64,000 nucleotides of DNA. It comes from Gloeomargarita sp. SRBZ-1_bins_9. GTDB taxonomy: Bacteria; Cyanobacteriota; Cyanobacteriia; Gloeomargaritales; Gloeomargaritaceae. Under the pieces are notes generated by a model. The model was given only the letters and a program-made list of their open reading frames with translations. It did no database searches and was not told the origin of the DNA. Within the stretch, counting starts at the first letter, position 1. The number at the start of each line of letters is the position of its first letter. This document shows positions 9,486-40,052 of the stretch, piece by piece. The translations under genes were made by a program, and so were the position numbers. The DNA lies in the NCBI GenBank assembly GCA_039794565.1, contig JAUQVX010000012.1, positions 807 to 64,806 on the forward strand, written 5' to 3'.

Positions 9486-9928
9486 AGAAAATCTATTTCT
9501 ATCGCGTGGAGGAACCCTACGGCTTTTTGTCCAATTTTTCGCCCCATCCCATCGTCCTGGACGGGCAGCTGTGGCCGACGGTGGAGCATTACTACCAGGC
9601 CCAAAAGTTTGTGGGAACGCCCCATGGGGACCTGGTGGACTACATTCGGCAATTGCCCACTCCCGAGCAGGCGGCGCAAACGGGTAGAAATCCTCGCTAT
9701 CAACGGCGACCGGATTGGGACCAGGTCAAACGGGAGGTGATGCTCAAAGCGGTGCGGTGTAAGTTCCACAGCCATCCCGACTTGGCCCGGCAATTACTGG
9801 CCACCGGCGATGCGGAGCTGATCGAAAACTCGCCCACGGATTGGTACTGGGGCTGCGGCGCCGACGGACGAGGTTGCAACCACCTGGGCCGGATTCTTAT
9901 GCAGGTGCGCCAGGAGCTGCGGCGTTAG
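9482..9928 (+). CDS. NADAR (YbiA-like) N-glycosidase family protein
   Basis: FLSNF, WPTVEHYYQAQKF, W..VK..VM, KF..HP.L...LLATG, E.SP.D.YWG, N.LG.ILM.VR; ATG overlaps GT2 stop. Confidence 0.9.
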   Translation: MKKIYFYRVEEPYGFLSNFSPHPIVLDGQLWPTVEHYYQAQKFVGTPHGDLVDYIRQLPTPEQAAQTGRNPRYQRRPDWDQVKREVMLKAVRCKFHSHPDLARQLLATGDAELIENSPTDWYWGCGADGRGCNHLGRILMQVRQELRR

Positions 9929-10833
9929 CCGAGGGTGTCCCCTATCCCGTCGGCGTTGATGTAGGCCGCCAGCAGGACATCGGTGGTTTTGCCCCAGGCG
10001 ATATTGCCCTGCCGGTCCAGGCCGATGGCCCCTAAATCGCGGTCCCGTTCGGCTGCCTCCCGGAACGACCGCTCAAACGCCTCCGCCAGGGTCAGTCCAT
10101 CCGTTACCCGAATGACGATCCGTGCCGCCAGGCATTCATCAATGATGTCTTCGCCGATGCCCGTGCAACTGACGGCGGCGTCCTCATTGGCGTAGGTGCC
10201 TGCCGGCATGGCGGAATCGCTCACCCGCCCGATGCGCTCACCCCCTTTGCCGCCGGTGGAGGTGCCCGCTGACAGATGCCCCTGCCGGTCCCGGGCCACC
10301 ACACCAATGGTCCCCATCTCCGCCACCAGGTTCATCACGGCGCCGTCTTGGGTTTGCTGGACCCACTCCTGCAACCGCTGGGGGGTCACGGGGTTATAGG
10401 GGGGCATGTGCAACTCCCGGGCCAATTCCAAGGCACCCCCATCGGCAATCACCCGGTCCCGTTGGCTTTGCAGAAACTGGGCCAGTTGGATGGGGTAGCG
10501 CACCCGCTGGACATTGATGACGCCGCTAAAGGTCTGGCTATGGCCGTTCATTAAAGCGGCGCTAAGACGCGCTTGCCCGTCGGATTGCAACACCGCACCC
10601 GTACCGGCGTTAAACAGGGGGTCGTCCTCCAGCATCTGACACCCCTGCACAACAGCTGTGACCGCATCCACCCCCTCCAGGAGCTGTTCATAAACCGTGC
10701 GGGCAACCCGGTGCAGGGAGGCGCGGATAGGGGCTACCGATTGGGGGGACTTTAAGGTGGCACCGGCACCGCCGTGGATGATCACCTGGGGGCCATTTGT
10801 AGCGTCAATCCTTGCCACCTGATACGTCGCCAT
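9925..10833 (-). CDS. iaaA: Isoaspartyl peptidase / plant-type L-asparaginase
   Basis: IIHGGAG, LEDDPLFNAG.G, GTIGVVA (nucleophile Thr), GTSTGG, GRVSDS, SCTGIGE. Confidence 0.9.
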   Translation of the reverse strand: MATYQVARIDATNGPQVIIHGGAGATLKSPQSVAPIRASLHRVARTVYEQLLEGVDAVTAVVQGCQMLEDDPLFNAGTGAVLQSDGQARLSAALMNGHSQTFSGVINVQRVRYPIQLAQFLQSQRDRVIADGGALELARELHMPPYNPVTPQRLQEWVQQTQDGAVMNLVAEMGTIGVVARDRQGHLSAGTSTGGKGGERIGRVSDSAMPAGTYANEDAAVSCTGIGEDIIDECLAARIVIRVTDGLTLAEAFERSFREAAERDRDLGAIGLDRQGNIAWGKTTDVLLAAYINADGIGDTLG

Positions 10834-10909
10834 GCTCCCACCAACGCCCCTTATCGGCTACACTGACTGGTATTGATGATATGAAAAATTAGCGTTATCT
10901 AACTGGGCT

Positions 10910-12103
10910 ATGGAACGTTTTGTCGCCGCTGAGAGGCCACCGTCGCCGGTGTGGCTAAATGCCCTTTCGACGCAGGTATCCCTGGAGCGGGCTATTCAAG
11001 AGGTGACGGCGCAGGTGCAGGCCCTGGGTACGGTAGATTTGGCCCTGGTATTTATCAGCAATAGTTTCGCCAGCGAATACGTGCGGTTGCTGCCCCTGTT
11101 GCACGAGGCGTTACCCATCCGCTGTCTGGTGGGGTGCGGGGCCAATGGGGTGGTGGGTTCTCTCCCCAGCGGTGTCGCCCAGGAAATCGAAGGGAAACCG
11201 GCTCTGGCTCTGAGCGTGGCTCGCTTGCCGGGGGTGGAGGTGCATCCCTTGGTGATCCAGCCCCAGGATGTGCCCGATTTGGACAGCCCGCCCCAGGCCT
11301 GGGTGGAGGTGGTAGGCGTGGACCCGGCGCGCAACCCCCACTTTATCTTGCTGGCGGATCCCGCTACGAGCCGGATTGTGGATGTGCTCCAGGGACTGGA
11401 TTACGCCTATCCCCATAGCGTCAAGGTGGGGGGTCTGGTGGGGGATGGCCTGTTTTGCCAACGGGAATTGGTAACCCAGGGGGTGGTCGGTGTGGCCCTG
11501 GCGGGGTTGCGGGCAGAAGCCATTGTCGCCCAAGGGTGTCGGCCTATCGGCCAGCCCTACCGCGTGACCAAGGGCGAGCGCAATATCATCCTGGGCCTGG
11601 AGGACCGGACGCCCCTGCAGGTGTTGCAAAACTTGATCCAAAACCTGGACGAGGCCGACCGAGAATTGGCCCAATCGGGGTTGCACATTGGTGTGGTGGG
11701 GGATGAATTCAAGCAGGAACTAGGGCCGACGGATTTTCTCATTCGCAATCTGCTGGGGATTGACCCGCGCTATGGGGCCATTGCTATCGGCGACCGGGTG
11801 CGGCCTGGCCAACGGGTGCAATTTCACCTGCGGGATGCCCAAACCTCCATCACCGATTTGCAACAACTGCTGGCGTCCCACGTGCGCCATCATCCTGAAC
11901 CACCGGTGGGGGCGCTGATGTTTGCCTGTTTGGGTCGGGGGCAGCACCTGTACGGACGACCGAACGTGGATTCCCACCTGTTCCAGCAGTATTTACCGGG
12001 CGTGACCCTGGCGGGGTGCTTTTGCAACGGGGAAATCGGGCCGGTGGGGAACACCACCTACCTGCACGGCTACACCGCCGTTTTTGTCCTGTGGTATGCT
12101 TAA
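10910..12103 (+). CDS. FIST-domain (NosP-like) signal transduction protein
   Basis: VAQGCRPIG, RNLLGIDP..GAIAIG, QFHLRD, FACLGRG, FCNGEIGP, C-terminal LHGYT. Confidence 0.92.
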   Translation: MERFVAAERPPSPVWLNALSTQVSLERAIQEVTAQVQALGTVDLALVFISNSFASEYVRLLPLLHEALPIRCLVGCGANGVVGSLPSGVAQEIEGKPALALSVARLPGVEVHPLVIQPQDVPDLDSPPQAWVEVVGVDPARNPHFILLADPATSRIVDVLQGLDYAYPHSVKVGGLVGDGLFCQRELVTQGVVGVALAGLRAEAIVAQGCRPIGQPYRVTKGERNIILGLEDRTPLQVLQNLIQNLDEADRELAQSGLHIGVVGDEFKQELGPTDFLIRNLLGIDPRYGAIAIGDRVRPGQRVQFHLRDAQTSITDLQQLLASHVRHHPEPPVGALMFACLGRGQHLYGRPNVDSHLFQQYLPGVTLAGCFCNGEIGPVGNTTYLHGYTAVFVLWYA

Positions 12104-13460
12104 CCAGCTGTTAGACGGTCGTTATCGCATCATTGCTACCCTGGCGGCGGGGGGGTTTGGCAAAACTTTTTTGGCCCAGGACACCAAGCGACCGGGGCAA
12201 CCCCAGTGTGTGGTGAAGATGCTCCACGGCAGCCACGACCCCAAAACCATGGAGGTGGCGCGACGGTTGTTTTACAAAGAAGCCGAAACCCTGGAGCGGT
12301 TGCGCCATCCCCAGATTCCCCAACTGCTGGCGTTTTTTGAGCAAAACCAAGAGTTTTACCTGGTGGAGGAGTTCATTCTGGGGCACACCCTGGCGCAGGA
12401 GCTGGTACCGGGCCGGGTGTTTGATGAGAGGTGGGTACTGACGTTTCTCACGGATGTGCTGCAAATTTTGCAGTTTATCCACAGCCGGGGGGTGATCCAC
12501 CGGGACCTGAAGCCTAGTAACCTCATCCGCCGGCAGGGGGACGGCAATTTGGTGTTGATCGACTTTGGGGCGGTCAAGCACTTGCCGTTGGGGGGACCCA
12601 CGCCGCCGGAGGCCAGCCAAACCGTGGGCATCGGCACCCAGGGCTACATGCCTACCGAACAATCCAGCGGCAAACCCCGCTTCAGCAGCGACCTCTATGC
12701 CCTGGGCATGATGGCCATCCAGGCCCTGACGGGGGTGCATCCCCGGGATTTACCAGAAGACCCAGACACCGGCGAAATCCTCTGGCAAGACCGTGCCCAG
12801 GTGAGTCCTGCCCTAGCCCACATTTTGACCAAGATGGTGCGCTATCACTTCAGCCAGCGTTACCAACGCGCCGAAGAGGTGCTGCAGGATTTACAGCCCC
12901 TGTTGGCCCAATTGCCCCAGCTGGCCCCGCCCTTGCCCCCGGACAATCTGGCCCTGCGCATGGCCGAACCCACCTATCGGGAAGGGGCGTCTTCCCTCTC
13001 TACCCAACCGGTGGAGATTGAATCTACCGTCGTTGCGACCCAAGCGGTGGAGGAACCCCCTACAGCAACCCCTGTTGCTCCCCAGCCCGCCCCTGGCCCA
13101 ACCCACACCAATCGTTTGCCCTGGCGGTGGGGAGTCGGGGCAGCCCTAGTGTTGGTGGTTGGGGGAGGATGGGTCGGTTGGCAACGGTGGCAATCCCCTT
13201 CTGTCTCGGGGGTCTTGCGGGAAGCCCAAGCCTTGATTGCCCAGGCGAGCCAACAAACCACCCGGGCCAAGACATTGGAACAACTGCAAACCGCCAAAGC
13301 CCAATGGCAAAAAGCTCTGGTGACCTTAAAACAGATCGATCAGCCCGCCGCAGCGGCTCCAGAAATCCAACAGTTGCAACAACAGTGTGAGCAGGAAATT
13401 CGTCAACTTGAGGCCCGCATTCTAGCCTGTCAAGACGTGCTATGGGGGGACTGTCCCTAA
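12096..13460 (+). CDS. Hanks-type Ser/Thr protein kinase with TM helix and short C-terminal helical domain
   Basis: GGFG glycine loop, VVK, IHRDLKPSN, DFG, GTQGY; TM WRWGVGAALVLVVGGGWVGW; ATG overlaps FIST stop. Confidence 0.95.
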   Translation: MLNQLLDGRYRIIATLAAGGFGKTFLAQDTKRPGQPQCVVKMLHGSHDPKTMEVARRLFYKEAETLERLRHPQIPQLLAFFEQNQEFYLVEEFILGHTLAQELVPGRVFDERWVLTFLTDVLQILQFIHSRGVIHRDLKPSNLIRRQGDGNLVLIDFGAVKHLPLGGPTPPEASQTVGIGTQGYMPTEQSSGKPRFSSDLYALGMMAIQALTGVHPRDLPEDPDTGEILWQDRAQVSPALAHILTKMVRYHFSQRYQRAEEVLQDLQPLLAQLPQLAPPLPPDNLALRMAEPTYREGASSLSTQPVEIESTVVATQAVEEPPTATPVAPQPAPGPTHTNRLPWRWGVGAALVLVVGGGWVGWQRWQSPSVSGVLREAQALIAQASQQTTRAKTLEQLQTAKAQWQKALVTLKQIDQPAAAAPEIQQLQQQCEQEIRQLEARILACQDVLWGDCP

Positions 13461-13491
13461 AGAAAGAGCCGGCTTTTATCCCCAACCGGCT
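13459..13491 (-). terminator. Rho-independent terminator
   Basis: Minus strand AGCCGGTT-loop-AGCCGGCT (8-bp stem with one G.U) then CTTTCTTT; on + the stem has a C.A mismatch and no U tract. Confidence 0.7.
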
Positions 13492-13605
13492 GACCCTATC
13501 ACCAAGATTTCTCAGGCACGGATAATCCCAGTCCAGCCTCAGCGTGATTCTGCGACTCGACTGAAATCCTCCTTATTTCCATCTTAGGTAACAATTGTTA
13601 CTGGC
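13461..13605 (-). ncRNA. Candidate sRNA or microprotein transcript (PsrR1-like architecture), containing 27-codon ORF 13499..13582
   Basis: AT-rich promoter-like stretch with HLR1 repeat upstream and own terminator downstream; ORF MEIRRISVESQNHAEAGLGLSVPEKSW; 5' end estimated from a TATAAA -10-like box. Confidence 0.45.
13588..13601. promoter_or_regulatory. Perfect 14-bp palindrome matching the NtcA consensus GTA-N8-TAC
   Basis: GTAACAATTGTTAC. Confidence 0.55.
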
Positions 13606-13611
13606 GCTTCA

Positions 13612-13629
13612 TTTATAAAAGTTTACATT
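13612..13629. promoter_or_regulatory. HLR1-like direct repeat (RpaB site)
   Basis: TTTATAAA-AG-TTTACATT versus KTTACAWW-NN-KTTACAWW, one mismatch. Confidence 0.6.
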
Positions 13630-13676
13630 TGCTCTACTGGGGAGTTATAAGCAGAACTTTTATGGCCGAGTCGGTG

Positions 13677-14333
13677 TCAGGACATCAGGTAGGCGGGGGC
13701 CAGCGCAGTCAGGTAGGCCACGATGTCAGCGATGGGGGGGGTCACCGGGGGTGGCGGCGGTGTAGTGCCGAACAGGTGTTGCCACAGGTGCGGGTCGGGG
13801 TGCAGGGCCATCGAACCGTGTTGCAACAGACTCTGGCCCCGGCGTAATTGAGCGCTGCCAATGAATTTGTGACCGGTGGCTATGACCAGGTCGGTGCGGG
13901 TGGCCTGGGCAAAGCAGGAACCAACGCCGGGTTGGGGCGGGTCCTGGCCCGGGTGCAGGGAAAGGCCCAACCCTTGCCAGCCTTGGATCAGCCAGTTTTG
14001 GATGCGTTCCACTTGCTGGCGATAGGTCCCCGGTGACACCCCCAGTACCACCGCATAGCACAGGTCCCCTTGGTGTAATACCGCACTGCCCCCCGAGGGT
14101 CGGCGAATCAGGGGTAACTGTTCCCAGTGAGCGGGCCATTGACGCTGGTGATACCCTAGGGAAATGGCTACCGGTTGCCACTGGTAGAATCGCACAGCCC
14201 CGGCGATGTCCCCCCGTTGGTGGGCAGCCAGCAGGTCCAGGTCCGTTTGCATGTGGGTGGCGCCGTCGGCTACCTGCAACGGCCAGACCAGCCAGGGGGC
14301 AGATGGTGCTAAGCTAGTAACCATGCCAGCCAT
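13677..14333 (-). CDS. Lipoate-protein ligase A family protein
   Basis: HMQTDLDLL, RFYQWQP.AISLGYHQ, RRPSGG.AVLH, CFA, KFIGSAQ, LQHGS; start at 14333 or 14324 because the upstream ORF extension runs antisense through the tRNA. Confidence 0.88.
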   Translation of the reverse strand: MAGMVTSLAPSAPWLVWPLQVADGATHMQTDLDLLAAHQRGDIAGAVRFYQWQPVAISLGYHQRQWPAHWEQLPLIRRPSGGSAVLHQGDLCYAVVLGVSPGTYRQQVERIQNWLIQGWQGLGLSLHPGQDPPQPGVGSCFAQATRTDLVIATGHKFIGSAQLRRGQSLLQHGSMALHPDPHLWQHLFGTTPPPPPVTPPIADIVAYLTALAPAYLMS

Positions 14334-14335
14334 GA

Positions 14336-14409
<74 letters not shown>

Positions 14410-14473
14410 TAGATGACGCCCCTGACCCACAATTGGTAATGTAACAGAGTTGTTACTGCCGGGAAGGGGGCTT

Positions 14474-34649: not shown

Positions 34650-35900
34650 ATGGCCATTTCCCTGACGGATCATCCTTTGCTCCAGGCGGTGCTGGCGGAA
34701 TTGCAGCCCCGGTTCCAGGCGATTGATGCCCTGGTGAAAACCAACTTGGCGCGGGTGCTGCAGGCCATGGCCGACCAGCGGGTGGGGGTGCACCACTTTC
34801 ACGAAACGACTGGCTATGGGCACGGGGACCAGGGGCGGGAAACCCTGGAGCGGGTGTTTGCCCAGGTGATGGGGGCGGAGGCGGCGCTGGTGCGTCCCCA
34901 GTTTTTCTCCGGCACCCATGCCATTGCCTGTGCCCTGTATGGGGTGTTGCGTCCGGGGGATGAACTGCTGGTGGCAACAGGAGCGCCCTATGACACGTTG
35001 GAACCGGTGTTGGGGCTGCGGGACTCAGGGCAGGGGTCGCTCCAGGATTTCGGCGTCCTTTACCGGCAGGTGGATTTGACGCCTACAGGGGAGGTGGATT
35101 GGCAGGCCCTGCCCCAGGCAGTAGGTCCCCGCACCCGGGTGGTGTTGATTCAGCGCTCCTGCGGCTATAGTTGGCGGCGCAGTCTGACGGTGGCGGAGGT
35201 CGGCTACATTGTTGAGCGGGTTAAGCAGGTCAATCCCCGGGTCATTTGCGTGGTGGACAACTGCTACGGCGAATTTGCTGAGACCCAGGAGCCGCCGATG
35301 GTGGGGGCTGACCTGATCGCCGGGTCGTTGATCAAAAATCCGGGGGGAACCATTGCCCCTTGCGGCGGATACGTGGCCGGCAAACGGGCCTATGTGCAAC
35401 TGGCGGCGAATCGTTTAAGCGCGCCGGGGATCGGCATGGAAGCCGGAGCGTCCCTGGGGTTCAATCGCCTGTTGTTCCAGGGGTTGTTTCTGGCGCCGCA
35501 GATGGTGGGAGAGGCCCTCAAGGGGGGATTGCTGCTGGCGGCCACCTGCCAACGCCTGGGCTATCCGGTGCAGCCGACGCCAGAACAACCCCGGCCCGAC
35601 ACCATCCAGGCCATCCAGTTGGGGGACCCGGACAAGTTGGTGCGCTTTTGTCGGCTCCTGCAGCGCCTCAGTCCGGTGGGGAGCTATGTGGACCCTGTGC
35701 CAGCCGTCACGCCGGGATACGAGAGCCAATTAGTGATGGCCGGCGGCACGTTTATTGACGGCAGCACGAGCGAGCTGTCCGCCGATGGTCCCCTGCGACC
35801 GCCTTATGTGGTGTTTTGTCAAGGGGGCACCACCTGGTTGCACTGGCTCTGGGCGCTGGAACACCTCCTGCCGGAGCTGGCCCCTAATTCACGTACATGA
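34650..35900 (+). CDS. Methionine gamma-lyase / YnbB (aluminium resistance) family PLP enzyme
   Basis: TGYGHGDQGRE, SGTHAI, IQRS.GY, VDNCYGEF, GSLIKNPGG, MAGGTF..GST.ELSADGP. Confidence 0.92.
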   Translation: MAISLTDHPLLQAVLAELQPRFQAIDALVKTNLARVLQAMADQRVGVHHFHETTGYGHGDQGRETLERVFAQVMGAEAALVRPQFFSGTHAIACALYGVLRPGDELLVATGAPYDTLEPVLGLRDSGQGSLQDFGVLYRQVDLTPTGEVDWQALPQAVGPRTRVVLIQRSCGYSWRRSLTVAEVGYIVERVKQVNPRVICVVDNCYGEFAETQEPPMVGADLIAGSLIKNPGGTIAPCGGYVAGKRAYVQLAANRLSAPGIGMEAGASLGFNRLLFQGLFLAPQMVGEALKGGLLLAATCQRLGYPVQPTPEQPRPDTIQAIQLGDPDKLVRFCRLLQRLSPVGSYVDPVPAVTPGYESQLVMAGGTFIDGSTSELSADGPLRPPYVVFCQGGTTWLHWLWALEHLLPELAPNSRT

Positions 35901-36540
35901 ATACCTCGCTTTTTTCATAGCGCACCTTGGGGCGTTGAGCCTGGGGGTCGTCGGCGGCGCGGTAACCCAATGGACACACCACCACTGAGCGATAGGGGGT
36001 TTCCTTCAGCCCCAGGATTTCGTCGTATTTATCAGGGATGAATCCCTCCATCGGGCAGGTGTCAATCCCCAAAAACGCCGCCACCGTCATCAGTTGCCCC
36101 AGTGCAATATACACCTGACGGGCGGCCCATTCTTCCAAATTCAGGGGATAGGGGGGATGGGTCAAAAAGTTTTTGATAAGCTGGCCCAGTCCCTGCAATT
36201 TCTCTAGGGGCACCCCCTGCACCTGGGCTATGCGCGCCAAATACCGATCCACATCCGCCGGACCCAGGTTTTTTTGCAGCGCCAGGACCACCAGATGGGA
36301 GGCCTCAACCACCTGCTTTTGCCCCCAGGAGTACTCCACCAACTGCGCCCGGATGTCCGGGTTGTGCACCACCACAAATCGCCAAGGCTGCAGGCCAAAG
36401 GAAGAAGGGGCCAGGCGTAAACTTTCCTCCAAAACCGCCCAAATCTCCGGCGGAATTTTCCGGGTGGGGTCAAACTTTTTGGTGGCGTACCGCCAGGACA
36501 ACCGCTGCTGTACGAACTCCGGTGAAACCCCCGCCAACAT
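35884..36540 (-). CDS. NAD(P)H-dependent nitroreductase family protein
   Basis: WRYATKKFDP, LAPSSFGLQPW.F, GIDTCPMEGF, LGYR. Confidence 0.93.
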   Translation of the reverse strand: MLAGVSPEFVQQRLSWRYATKKFDPTRKIPPEIWAVLEESLRLAPSSFGLQPWRFVVVHNPDIRAQLVEYSWGQKQVVEASHLVVLALQKNLGPADVDRYLARIAQVQGVPLEKLQGLGQLIKNFLTHPPYPLNLEEWAARQVYIALGQLMTVAAFLGIDTCPMEGFIPDKYDEILGLKETPYRSVVVCPLGYRAADDPQAQRPKVRYEKSEVFMYVN

Positions 36541-36687
36541 GCCCTAGCCCCCTTTACAAAAGTTAACCTTTGTTTTGCATTATAGGGCCACCCTATCCGT
36601 TGGGGGGACTGGCCACTCGGAGAAATTACCGTTGAGCCAGGGGAAGGGACCAATTAGAATTCGGAATACCCCAGCATCGTCGGAACC

Positions 36688-37020
36688 ATGCTTCGGCAAA
36701 TGAATGCCCATGACTTTGCGGCCCGCCGCCGGCAGAATCCCTACCTACAGGTTTTGGATGTGCGGGAGTGGTGGGAGGTGGAACGGGCTTGCTTGCCGGG
36801 CTGTCTCCATCTGCCCCTGAGTGAATTTGCCCTGTGGTCCCCCCAAATCAAGGAGCTACTCGACCCGGCGCAGGAAGTTGTGGTTGTGTGCCATCACGGG
36901 GTGCGGTCGGCCCAGGTGGGCGCTTGGTTGCTGGACCAGGGCTACACCCAGGTGGCCAATCTGGCCGGTGGATTAGACGCCTATGCCCTACTGGTGGACC
37001 CGACCCTGCCCCGTTACTAA
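36688..37020 (+). CDS. Single-domain rhodanese
   Basis: LDVRE.WE, VCHHGVRS, NL.GG.DA. Confidence 0.9.
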   Translation: MLRQMNAHDFAARRRQNPYLQVLDVREWWEVERACLPGCLHLPLSEFALWSPQIKELLDPAQEVVVVCHHGVRSAQVGAWLLDQGYTQVANLAGGLDAYALLVDPTLPRY

Positions 37021-38832: not shown

Positions 38833-39060
38833 GAATTGAGCCCGGCCCAACAAAGGCGCGTCCAGCGGATATTGGCCCATGTAATCCGTGCCGGTCAGCC
38901 CCAGGCCCTGGATCAGTGGTCCGCTTGGGGTTATCCGAGGCCACGATGGGGGGAGCAGTTCTGCCCTGAAAGTGCCCGGCCACCTCCAGGACTTGACCGA
39001 CCATCTGGAACCGGAACTGAGCGCCTTTGTTCTTTCCCAAGCCCGGCGATCACCCGCGAT
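38833..39060 (+). pseudogene. Possible decayed M48-family Zn-peptidase fragment
   Basis: Consecutive motif-like pieces in three frames: LSPAQQ..RVQRIL, EATMGG (cf. NAFATMGG), DHLEPELSAFVL (cf. DNEAELASVL); HExxH absent. Confidence 0.3.
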
Positions 39061-39061
39061 G

Positions 39062-39088
39062 AAAAAAAAAAGGGCCTGACAAGCCCCC
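39062..39088 (-). terminator. Rho-independent terminator of petCA
   Basis: Minus strand GGGCTT-GTC-AGGCCC then T10, about 25 nt after the petA stop. Confidence 0.85.
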
Positions 39089-39110
39089 TGCCTCTCGCGT
39101 TAGGTCACCT

Positions 39111-40052
39111 TCAGAACTCCATCTGAGCCTGCACCTTCTCCCACTGGCGTTTTTTGAGCACCAGTAGCACCTGCGCCAGGGCCACCGTAGCTAAAAACGC
39201 CATCAACCACTTCAGGCGGGTGGGGCTTTGCAGGACGATTTCCCGCTGCGCTTGACCAAACCCACCCACATTGGGGTTGTCCGTCAAGGGGGCATCCGCG
39301 GCAACCGTATCCCCTACCGCCACGATCAGCTGCGGTCCCGGCGGGATGGTTTCTACTACGGGGTCACCCTCTTCCGGCTGGATCGTCACCTGGTAACCGC
39401 CCTCCGCTTGGGGGGTAATCGCTGTGATCCGCCCGGATACCGAGGCCGTAAACACCGTATTGTTGCTCTTTTCACCCGTGGGATACACCTGACCGCGCCC
39501 GCGGTTGCCCCCCAAATACACTGGATACTTCAGAAAATGCACGTTTTTATTGGTGGCCGGGTCCGGGGCCAGGATAGGAAAGACAATCTCCTGGTACTGG
39601 TCCCCGGGTAAAGGACCCACCAGTAAGATATTGGGTTTGTCCTCGCTATAGGTCTGGTAGTAGATGCCCTCGGTTTTTTCCTTCAGCTCCGGCGGGATAC
39701 GGTCCTCCGGCGCCAGGGTAAAGCCCTCCGGCAGAATCACCACCGCCCCCACGTTCAACGGCCCGCGACTGCCGTCGGCATAGACCTGTTGCAGACTGGT
39801 GTCGTAGGGAATCTTCACCTTGGCCTCAAAAACCTGGTTGGGCAGTACCGCCTGGGGTAGCTCCAGTTGCACGGGTTTTTGGGCCAGATGGCAGTTGGCG
39901 CACACAATCCGGCCGGTGGGTTCTCGGGGGTTGTCGTAGGCCTGCTGCGCCCAGAAGGGATAGGCATAGGCTGGCGCCGGCAGCCACCCCAACCACAGCA
40001 GCATCCCCAGGCCCACCAGTGCCAGTTGTTGGAACAATCCTCGCATCTTCAT
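39111..40052 (-). CDS. petA: Apocytochrome f
   Basis: Signal peptide, YPFWAQQ, CANCH heme site, [11 protein letters not shown]-terminal TM and LKKRQ. Confidence 0.99.

What the first reader, a model, noticed from the sequence alone, without database searches (positions are those of the whole stretch)
13459..13629. Hidden minus-strand sRNA or microprotein unit with RpaB- and NtcA-type sites
Seen in a 216-bp gap that the ORF track leaves unexplained, reading the minus strand: an HLR1-like repeat (13612-13629) overlapping a TATAAA -10-like box, a perfect GTAACAATTGTTAC palindrome (13588-13601), a 27-codon ORF (13582-13499, MEIRRISVESQNHAEAGLGLSVPEKSW) with an internal AAGGAGG, and a strand-specific terminator (13491-13459). 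The unit is about 130-145 nt. Known: RpaB represses high-light genes through HLR1 sites overlapping the promoter, including the sRNA PsrR1 of about 130 nt; NtcA binds GTA-N8-TAC. Inference: a PsrR1-like or new dual-function RNA integrating light and nitrogen signals.
Basis: partly seen in the sequence, partly recalled or inferred. Interest (0 to 1): 0.7.

Follow-up and report, generated by a model that had tools for sequence, protein, structure and literature searches.

The report
Conserved small RNA gene beside kinase
The gap holds a roughly 150-base non-coding RNA gene, conserved in every Gloeomargarita cyanobacterium checked, always back-to-back with one protein-kinase gene and carrying a light-regulator (RpaB) type site on its promoter; it is not PsrR1 and it encodes no peptide.

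Summary
Comparison with eight other Gloeomargarita genomes separates the conserved features from the local ones.

**Conserved in all 9 distinct sequences**
- An AT-rich upstream block.
- The HLR1-like/-10 block, TGTAAA-S-TTTTATAAAT.
- A short 5' hairpin and a long G·U-rich hairpin.
- An invariant block, CUGAGAANNCUUGGU.
- A minus-strand terminator whose U-tract abuts the stop codon of a convergent Ser/Thr kinase gene.

**Not conserved**
- The 27-codon ORF is frameshifted or cut to 7-14 codons in the relatives.
- The AAGGAGG motif and the perfection of the palindrome are both lost.

**Other evidence**
- The element follows the kinase gene, not lipB. The gene on its other side differs between genomes and is divergently transcribed in two of them, so it cannot simply be a lipB 3' UTR.
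- Element identity is 71-76%, against 45-54% at the kinase's four-fold degenerate sites.
- Folding strongly favours the minus strand.
- No Rfam family matches, including PsrR1 (RF02701).
- GTA-N8-TAC is no commoner in the window than chance, and its position does not fit NtcA activation.

**Verdict:** a new, genus-restricted sRNA candidate, probably repressed by RpaB in low light. Its target is unknown; the kinase mRNA 3' end is possible. No transcript data could be obtained.

The parts
13641..13661 (-). Conserved AT-rich upstream block AAAAGTTCTGCTTATAACTCC (family consensus AAAAGATTTTTTTATCATTCC). It marks the 5' limit of conservation, lies about -28 to -56 from the predicted start, and could be UP-like, -35-like or an unknown factor site.
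   Evidence: Alignments A2 and A3: conservation begins exactly here in all nine sequences, while everything upstream is unrelated between genomes.
13612..13629 (+). HLR1-type (RpaB) direct repeat TTTATAAA-AG-TTTACATT, read on the + strand and overlapping both candidate -10 boxes of the minus-strand promoter.
   Evidence: 1 mismatch, the best hit in the window; the repeats are kept in 9 of 9 sequences while the N2 spacer varies (AG or AC). Consensus and the rule linking position to repression are from PMC6525291.
13612..13625 (-). Two candidate -10 elements. TAAACT (13625-13620; TAAAGT in relatives) fits TAnnnT and gives a start near 13614-13612. TATAAA (13617-13612) gives a start near 13605.
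   Evidence: Read from the sequence and invariant. The sigma-70 scanner calls no canonical promoter. The start site is predicted, not measured.
13588..13601 (-).
   Evidence: five pairs; A-U changes to G·U in six sequences; loop changes in two; one broken pair in L025; the motif frequency is at chance level.
13573..13587 (-). Conserved unpaired linker CCUAAGAUGGAAAUA (family consensus YUAAKAUGGARA).
   Evidence: unpaired in the consensus structure, with AUGGA invariant.
13520..13572 (-). Long hairpin H2, about 20 pairs and rich in G·U.
   Evidence: 92.8% of cells paired, 3 pairs with compensatory double changes, 7 with one-sided compatible changes. Loop and bulge positions vary.
13501..13515 (-). 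Invariant block CUGAGAANNCUUGGU, either a weak hairpin H3 or an exposed seed. Only the two N positions vary.
   Evidence: This is the candidate interaction site.
13459..13491 (-). Intrinsic terminator: stem AGCCGG/CCGGCU, a variable loop and U-tract CUCUUUCUUU. The U-tract abuts and overlaps the kinase stop codon (TAA, 13458-13460 on +).
   Evidence: The scanner calls the homologous terminator on this strand only in L025 and L027.
13499..13582 (-). 27-codon ORF (MEIRRISVES...). It is present in this genome but is not a conserved reading frame, so it is not considered a gene.
   Evidence: a 1-nt indel shifts the frame in L001 and most others. Stops fall after 7-14 codons in L019 and L025-L030.
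12096..13460 (+). Convergent Ser/Thr protein kinase gene, second gene of a FIST-kinase pair and the constant neighbour of the element.
   Evidence: Pfam Pkinase. P0121, 454 aa. The element lies directly after the kinase stop in all 8 orthologous loci fetched.
13677..14324 (-). Upstream co-oriented lipoate/octanoyl ligase-family gene (LplA-B_cat). It neighbours the element only in the thermophilic clade.
   Evidence: Relatives with 63% LipB identity or less have recG or other genes downstream and no element there.

Best explanation
The gap contains an independent gene for a non-coding small RNA of about 150 nt, transcribed on the minus strand from about 13614-13603 to about 13459.

Shown by comparison:
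- The whole unit is under purifying selection across the genus Gloeomargarita. The unit runs: upstream block, HLR1/-10 block, 5' hairpin, unpaired linker, long G·U-rich hairpin, invariant CUGAGAANNCUUGGU block, terminator.
- It has no conserved reading frame and folds well only as minus-strand RNA.
- It is always placed tail-to-tail with the same FIST-associated Ser/Thr kinase gene.

Inferred:
- An RpaB dimer binds the HLR1 repeat that overlaps the -10 and start site and blocks RNA polymerase in low light. When RpaB leaves DNA in high light, the sRNA is made.
- The sRNA then acts by base pairing through its conserved unpaired segments. It may act on unlinked mRNAs, or on kinase transcripts that read through into the sRNA gene, because the kinase gene has no terminator of its own strand.
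For: - Homologues: nhmmer E=1e-38 to 1e-82 and covariance model scores of 131-171 bits in every Gloeomargarita kinase locus fetched. These give 9 distinct sequences.
- Selection: the element is 71-76% identical to the window copy, while four-fold degenerate sites of the adjacent kinase gene are 45-54% identical.
- Own promoter: conservation starts at one sharp 5' boundary. Upstream neighbours differ (lipB, sbtB/P-II, atpG, aminotransferase) and in L027 and L029 are divergently transcribed, so read-through cannot be the common source.
- Non-coding: frames and stops differ between the sequences on both strands.
- Structure and strand: 95.7% of cells are paired, with 3 compensatory pairs and many G·U to A-U changes. 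Sense MFE is -43 to -54 kcal/mol against -25 to -33 for the antisense strand in all nine. The opposite strand scores 15 bits or less.
- Terminator: called only on this strand.
- HLR1: the best match in the window, invariant repeats with a variable spacer, in the position class that marks low-light-repressed, high-light-induced promoters (PMC6525291).
Against: - No transcript evidence of any kind. The one metatranscriptome of the same study does not contain this organism, and no RNA run was found for L001.
- Covariation is modest. Shuffles reach the observed values in 34-57 of 500 trials, and most helices are conserved by sequence identity.
- The promoter is not canonical. There is no sigma-70 scanner hit, TATAAA lacks the -7 T, and TAAAST has only a poor -35 at 19-nt spacing.
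- Invariance of the HLR1 block could reflect the core promoter itself and not RpaB. The first repeat carries a C-to-T mismatch.
- No target was found.
- All homologues were found through kinase- or lipB-anchored loci, so copies elsewhere and the distribution outside the genus are untested.
Confidence: 0.55

Rival explanations
1. A cis-acting 3'-end partner of the kinase gene, similar to GadY. The RNA's main job is to pair with kinase transcripts that run through the shared 3' region, or to interfere with them by convergent transcription. This would set kinase mRNA stability or 3'-end formation. It is a sub-case of the sRNA reading that differs in target.
For: - The element abuts the kinase stop codon in 10 of 10 loci from 8 species, while the other flank has at least six different neighbours.
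- No kinase-sense terminator is detected within 400-900 nt after the kinase stop, so read-through transcripts would be fully complementary to the sRNA.
Against: - There is no room between the sRNA terminator and the kinase stop for a rearrangement breakpoint, so the linkage could be passive.
- The strongly conserved unpaired blocks and hairpins are not needed for perfect antisense pairing.
- There are no data on the kinase mRNA 3' end.
Confidence: 0.25
2. A PsrR1 orthologue: the known high-light sRNA that represses photosystem I and phycobilisome mRNAs.
For: It has a similar size, an HLR1 site over the promoter, a Rho-independent terminator, and sits just 3' of an unrelated gene, as SyR1 does after fabF (PMC2662882; PMC6525291).
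Against: - Rfam RF02701 (identified as the PsrR1 model in PMC12873609) gives no hit at E<=10 in the window or E<=5 in seven homologues.
- Alignment to the two published SyR1 probe segments is no better than shuffled controls, and there is no conserved CUCC-type anti-SD.
Confidence: 0.04
3. A small-protein gene or dual-function RNA encoding the 27-aa peptide.
For: The window has an ATG-initiated 27-codon ORF. ATGGA is invariant, and seven sequences can be read as ME(I/R/V)G(R/G)FQ. A precedent exists: HliR1 turned out to encode SliP4 (PMC12850537, listed).
Against: - A 1-nt indel after codon 3-4 puts the window and L019 in a different frame from the other seven, while the downstream nucleotides stay conserved.
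- ORF lengths are 7, 9, 9, 9, 13, 13, 14, 27 and 43 codons.
- There is no SD upstream of the ATG, and the AAGGAGG lies downstream of it and is not conserved.
- Pfam gives no hit.
Confidence: 0.04
4. No RNA gene. The conserved sequence is either a lipB 3' UTR or terminator region, or a DNA-level regulatory or structural region for the kinase gene.
For: In the window the unit follows lipB in the same orientation with only a 15-nt unconserved spacer. No transcript data exist.
Against: - The element is present where lipB is absent and where the upstream gene is divergent.
- It is absent downstream of lipB in other Gloeomargaritales.
- A strand-specific fold with many G·U pairs, together with a strand-specific U-tract terminator, argues for a minus-strand RNA product.
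Confidence: 0.1

Closest known systems
PsrR1 / SyR1 (Rfam RF02701), high-light sRNA of Synechocystis and many other cyanobacteria
   Same: An intergenic sRNA of similar size (131 nt against about 150 nt). It has an HLR1-type site overlapping the core promoter or start, a Rho-independent terminator, and lies just downstream of an unrelated gene.
   Different: There is no covariance-model or sequence match and no conserved anti-SD seed. It is so far seen only in Gloeomargarita. It has a long G·U-rich hairpin and is fixed tail-to-tail with a kinase gene.
GadY-gadX type 3'-overlapping cis-encoded sRNAs (E. coli; from my own knowledge)
   Same: The sRNA gene is convergent with, and overlaps, the 3' end of a regulatory protein gene. 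The neighbour mRNA could pair with it.
   Different: The demonstrated overlap here is only the terminator and stop codon. Read-through of the kinase mRNA is inferred, not shown. The family is unrelated in sequence.
IsrR (antisense RNA of isiA), which has an HLR1 in the repressing position (PMC6525291)
   Same: A cyanobacterial regulatory RNA whose promoter carries an RpaB site in the repressing position.
   Different: IsrR is fully antisense inside a coding region. This RNA is intergenic and structured.
HliR1 / SliP4, a high-light 'sRNA' later shown to encode a 37-aa protein (PMC6596454; PMC12850537)
   Different: Here the ORF is not conserved in frame or length.

Membership tests
PsrR1 (RF02701) | Match to the Rfam covariance model | tested here: not met
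   No hit at E<=10 on window 13300-13800, none at gathering score, and none at E<=5 in seven homologous loci. RF02701 is identified as the PsrR1 model in PMC12873609.
PsrR1 (RF02701) | Conserved target-interaction sequence (pairs with ribosome-binding regions of psaL and others) | tested here: not met
   No conserved CUCC, CCUC or UCCU in 8 of 9 sequences, and no better-than-shuffled similarity to the two published SyR1 segments. The full PsrR1 sequence and the Gloeomargarita psaL region were not available.
PsrR1 (RF02701) | HLR1 site overlapping promoter or start; induction by high light | tested here: inconclusive
   The motif is present and conserved. RpaB binding and light response cannot be tested with these tools.
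RpaB (HLR1) regulon, repressed class | Two (G/T)TTACA(T/A)(T/A) repeats separated by 2 nt | tested here: met
   TTTATAAA-AG-TTTACATT has 1 mismatch and is the best hit in the window: 2 hits at 2 mismatches or fewer against 0.22 expected. The repeats are conserved in 9 of 9 and the spacer varies.
RpaB (HLR1) regulon, repressed class | Motif centred near the transcription start (about -5) | tested here: inconclusive
   The motif spans about -16 to +2 for the TAAAST -10, or about -24 to -7 for the TATAAA -10. The start is only predicted.
RpaB (HLR1) regulon, repressed class | RpaB binding lost on shift to high light | not testable with these tools
   Needs EMSA, ChIP or a reporter assay.
NtcA-regulated promoter | GTA-N8-TAC centred at about -41.5, with a TAN3T -10 about 22 nt downstream | tested here: not met
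   The motif is present in 8 of 9 sequences (GTC in L025) but lies downstream of both candidate -10 boxes. No TAN3T lies 22 nt after it. Its frequency in the window is at chance, 6 against 3.8. A repressor role cannot be excluded.
Independent bacterial sRNA gene | Conservation above the neutral rate without a conserved ORF | tested here: met
   71-76% identity against 45-54% at four-fold sites. No conserved frame on either strand.
Independent bacterial sRNA gene | Strand-specific conserved secondary structure and intrinsic terminator | tested here: met
   Covariation itself is modest.
Independent bacterial sRNA gene | Own promoter and a discrete transcript | not testable with these tools
   Indirect support comes from the sharp 5' conservation boundary and from variable or divergent upstream genes. 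No RNA data exist.
Small-protein gene / dual-function RNA | Reading frame conserved in length and frame | tested here: not met
3'-overlapping cis-antisense sRNA (GadY type) | Convergent with, and overlapping, the partner gene's 3' end, with constant linkage | tested here: met
   The U-tract overlaps the kinase stop codon. Linkage holds in 10 of 10 loci.
3'-overlapping cis-antisense sRNA (GadY type) | Partner mRNA extends into the sRNA gene and is affected by it | not testable with these tools
   The only evidence is the absence of a kinase-sense terminator.

The most novel reading that the evidence does not exclude
The RNA is a light-gated (RpaB-controlled) obligate partner of the FIST-Ser/Thr kinase operon in the cyanobacterial lineage closest to plastids. 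Made in high light, it pairs with read-through kinase transcripts, or collides with them, and so couples photosynthetic redox state to a phospho-signalling module. Its invariant unpaired blocks additionally act on unlinked mRNAs.
Probability: 0.15. Interest if true: 0.6.

Novelty: new member of a known kind. Interest (0 to 1): 0.4.

Why it matters
- Gloeomargarita is regarded as the closest living relative of the plastid ancestor (my own knowledge). The papers searched here describe no regulatory RNAs for it, and a 202-genome structure screen repeatedly found its order lacking widespread cyanobacterial RNA structures (PMC12873609).
- A conserved, probably RpaB-controlled sRNA that is not PsrR1 would show that high-light riboregulation exists in this lineage with a different RNA.
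- Its fixed pairing with a FIST-kinase operon gives a concrete, testable link between light sensing and Ser/Thr signalling.
- It is still one more candidate sRNA family of restricted range, without expression data.

Tried and rejected
1. Rfam at gathering and permissive thresholds, on the window and on seven homologous loci: only tRNA and two chance miRNA hits.
2. RNA evidence:
   - The only metatranscriptome offered (X14) has no contigs of this organism over 20 kb.
   - No RNA run was found for L001.
3. DNA runs X7-X9 held only identical, low-coverage copies and gave no variants.
4. The lipB-anchored scan of JGI metagenomes gave only relatives at 62% identity or less, without the element.
5. 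The full PsrR1 sequence could not be obtained. Georg 2014 is not held, no supplements are held, and a literature search for sequence fragments found only the primer list.
6. A long-range helix between AAGAU (linker) and AUCUU (invariant block), seen in the window MFE, was rejected. G-to-U in the lithophora group and U-to-G in L019 break it with no compensation.
7. Target search:
   - Whole-sRNA duplexfold gave meaningless long duplexes.
   - Segment-wise scans gave one outlier, which is the petA terminator U-tract pairing with the A-rich linker, an artefact.
   - Complement searches found nothing beyond chance.
8. P0147, a 45%-identical kinase, is not an orthologue (no FIST gene) and has no element.
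9. A canonical -35 was looked for. TTATCA lies 19 nt from TAAAGT and is not convincing.
Full report
**1. What is at the coordinates**

Read on the minus strand, the 216-bp gap 13461-13676 lies between two genes:
- the stop of a lipoate/octanoyl-ligase family gene (13677-14324, LplA-B_cat);
- the stop of a convergent Ser/Thr protein-kinase gene (12096-13460, Pkinase). This is the second gene of a FIST-kinase pair.

- the HLR1-like repeat TTTATAAA-AG-TTTACATT (13612-13629, read on the + strand);
- TATAAA (13617-13612);
- the perfect palindrome GTAACAATTGTTAC (13588-13601);
- the 27-codon ORF (13582-13499);
- AAGGAGG (13574-13568);
- a hairpin plus CUCUUUCUUU (13491-13459).

The HLR1 match is the best in the 64-kb window. 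At 2 mismatches or fewer there are 2 hits against 0.22 expected. GTA-N8-TAC is at chance level, 6 against 3.8. Rfam 15 gives no hit at gathering scores or at E<=10.

**2. Organism and homologues**

The window comes from a hot-spring Gloeomargarita-like cyanobacterium.

- A lipB-anchored genome scan found one syntenic homologue of the gap, in Gloeomargarita sp. SKYG116 (L001).
- A second came through LipB homologues, in SKYBB_i_bin120 (L019).
- LipB relatives at 63% identity or less have other downstream genes and no element.
- Searching through kinase orthologues changed the picture. All eight kinase loci fetched carry the element on the opposite strand directly after the kinase stop. They include one whose kinase is identical to that of G. 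lithophora Alchichica-D10. Scores are nhmmer E=1e-38 to 1e-82 and covariance-model 131-171 bits.
- The gene on the element's other side differs between genomes: lipB, a P-II-like sbtB with sbtA, atpG, an aminotransferase, a divergent Band_7 gene, or a divergent small ORF with rhodanese.

The element therefore belongs with the kinase 3' end, not with lipB. In at least two genomes no co-oriented upstream gene exists to supply read-through.

One caveat applies. All loci were reached through these two anchor genes, so other copies and the range outside the genus are untested.

**3. Selection and coding potential**

Against the window copy, the element (upstream block to terminator) is 71-76% identical. 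Four-fold degenerate sites of the adjacent kinase gene are 45-54% identical, and the kinase gene overall is 69-76% identical. The non-coding stretch is thus constrained about as much as the coding sequence.

Conservation begins at a sharp boundary, AAAAG at 13661, and runs to the U-tract.

The ORF is not conserved:
- A 1-nt indel (ATAAGG against ATAGG) puts the window and L019 in one frame and the other seven in another.
- ORF lengths are 7, 9, 9, 9, 13, 13, 14, 27 and 43 codons.
- AAGGAGG becomes AGGAAGA or AAGAAGA.
- No frame is conserved on the opposite strand either. The invariant block is read as TKISQ in some sequences and SPRFL in others.

The microprotein or dual-function idea is rejected.

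**4. RNA structure and strand**

RNAalifold on nine sequences gives four helices:
- H1, 13601-13588;
- H2, 13572-13520;
- H3, a weak helix inside the invariant block CUGAGAANNCUUGGU (13515-13501);
- the terminator, 13491-13467, followed by the U-tract.

Of all cells, 95.7% are paired. Three H2 pairs show compensatory double changes (for example C-G to U-A and G-C to A-U). Eight more pairs show one-sided changes between G·U and A-U. Loop, bulge and spacer positions take most of the remaining substitutions and all indels.

The shuffling control is only moderately exceeded (34-57 of 500 shuffles reach the observed values), so covariation is suggestive and not decisive.

Strand asymmetry is strong:
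- Sense MFE is -43 to -54 kcal/mol against -25 to -33 for the complement in all nine.
- The opposite strand scores 15 bits or less with the model.
- The scanner calls a terminator only on this strand in L025 and L027, and finds no kinase-sense terminator.

**5. Promoter and regulator sites**

The block TGTAAA-S-TTTTATAAAT is invariant except for one base in each of two sequences. It contains two candidate -10 boxes:
- TAAAST (13625-13620) fits TAnnnT and gives a start near 13614-13612.
- TATAAA (13617-13612) gives a start near 13605.

Neither has a good -35, and the sigma-70 scanner calls nothing.

The HLR1 repeats are conserved while their 2-nt spacer varies (AG or AC). The motif overlaps the -10 and start. 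This is the position class that Riediger et al. associate with RpaB repression in low light and induction in high light, on either strand (PMC6525291).

The NtcA idea is weak:
- GTA-N8-TAC is kept in 8 of 9 sequences (GTC in L025).
- It lies downstream of both -10 candidates, and no TAN3T follows it at the right distance.
- Its substitution pattern (A to G giving G·U, plus changes at loop positions) fits the 5' stem-loop H1 at least as well.
- Several 'N' positions are invariant, which a stem explains and NtcA does not.

**6. Comparison with known RNAs**

- PsrR1 is in Rfam as RF02701 (PMC12873609). It gave no hit in the window or in seven homologous loci.
- The two SyR1 segments published as probe primers (PMC2662882) align no better than shuffled controls, and there is no conserved anti-SD motif.
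- The resemblance to PsrR1 is therefore one of kind, not of family. The shared traits are size, an HLR1-type promoter, a terminator and a position just after an unrelated gene.
- The tail-to-tail arrangement with a regulatory gene resembles GadY-gadX (my own knowledge).

**7. Mechanism**

Best explanation: an independent sRNA gene, repressed by RpaB at the HLR1 over its promoter in low light and expressed in high light. It acts by base pairing through the conserved unpaired linker (YUAAKAUGGARA) and/or the invariant CUGAGAANNCUUGGU block.
- Shown: conservation, the non-coding nature, the strand-specific fold and terminator, and the linkage to the kinase.
- Inferred: transcription, RpaB control and the mode of action.

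The main sub-rival is a cis role on kinase transcripts. It is favoured by 10 of 10 linkage and by the lack of a kinase-sense terminator. That linkage may, however, be passive, because there is no space for a breakpoint between the two genes.

Target searches in the window gave nothing credible. The one outlier was the petA terminator U-tract.

**8. Verdict**

This is a new, apparently genus-restricted sRNA candidate of an ordinary architectural kind, with a plausible RpaB input and an unusual fixed partnership with a FIST-kinase operon. No expression data could be obtained, which limits confidence and interest.

Noticed in passing
window 36553-36570: This is the only other HLR1-like site in the window (TTTACAAAAGTTAACCTT, 2 mismatches). 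It lies in the gap between a nitroreductase-family gene (35884-36540, -) and a rhodanese gene (36688-37020, +), about 8 nt upstream of an ATTATA box. It may mark a second RpaB-type promoter.
   Followed up: partly
window 14336-14409: tRNA-Pro(CGG) lies on the + strand between the lipB-family gene and an inositol-monophosphatase gene. The mechanical ORF 13677-14432 runs over it. The real gene is 13677-14324 (215 aa, P0001).
   Followed up: yes
window 9925-13460 and L019, L024-L030: The arrangement of a divergent asparaginase gene, a FIST-domain gene and a Ser/Thr kinase gene is conserved in all Gloeomargarita loci fetched. FIST and kinase overlap by a few bases. The kinase ends in the conserved motif VLWG(D/E)CP.
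   Followed up: partly
L001, L019, L024-L030, upstream of the element: The DNA immediately upstream of the element's conserved AAAAG boundary is a recurrent rearrangement point. At least six different neighbouring genes are found there among nine genomes.
   Followed up: partly
L020 3375-4744: In a Logan contig the kinase gene is split into two ORFs (122 + 334 aa). The NCBI contig of the same species (L019) has it intact at 462 aa. This is an assembly error or a real frameshift.
   Followed up: no
window 39060-40052: petA (cytochrome f) lies on the minus strand, followed by a strong terminator with a 10-U tract. That tract produced a false 'target' hit for the A-rich linker of the sRNA.
   Followed up: yes
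L025 4288-5807; L026 4216-6430: In the G. lithophora-type genome the element's upstream neighbours are sbtB (P-II-like) and sbtA (bicarbonate transporter). In HHBFW_bins_162 they are atpG and atpA. Both gene sets are related to photosynthesis or carbon uptake and are co-oriented with the element.
   Followed up: no
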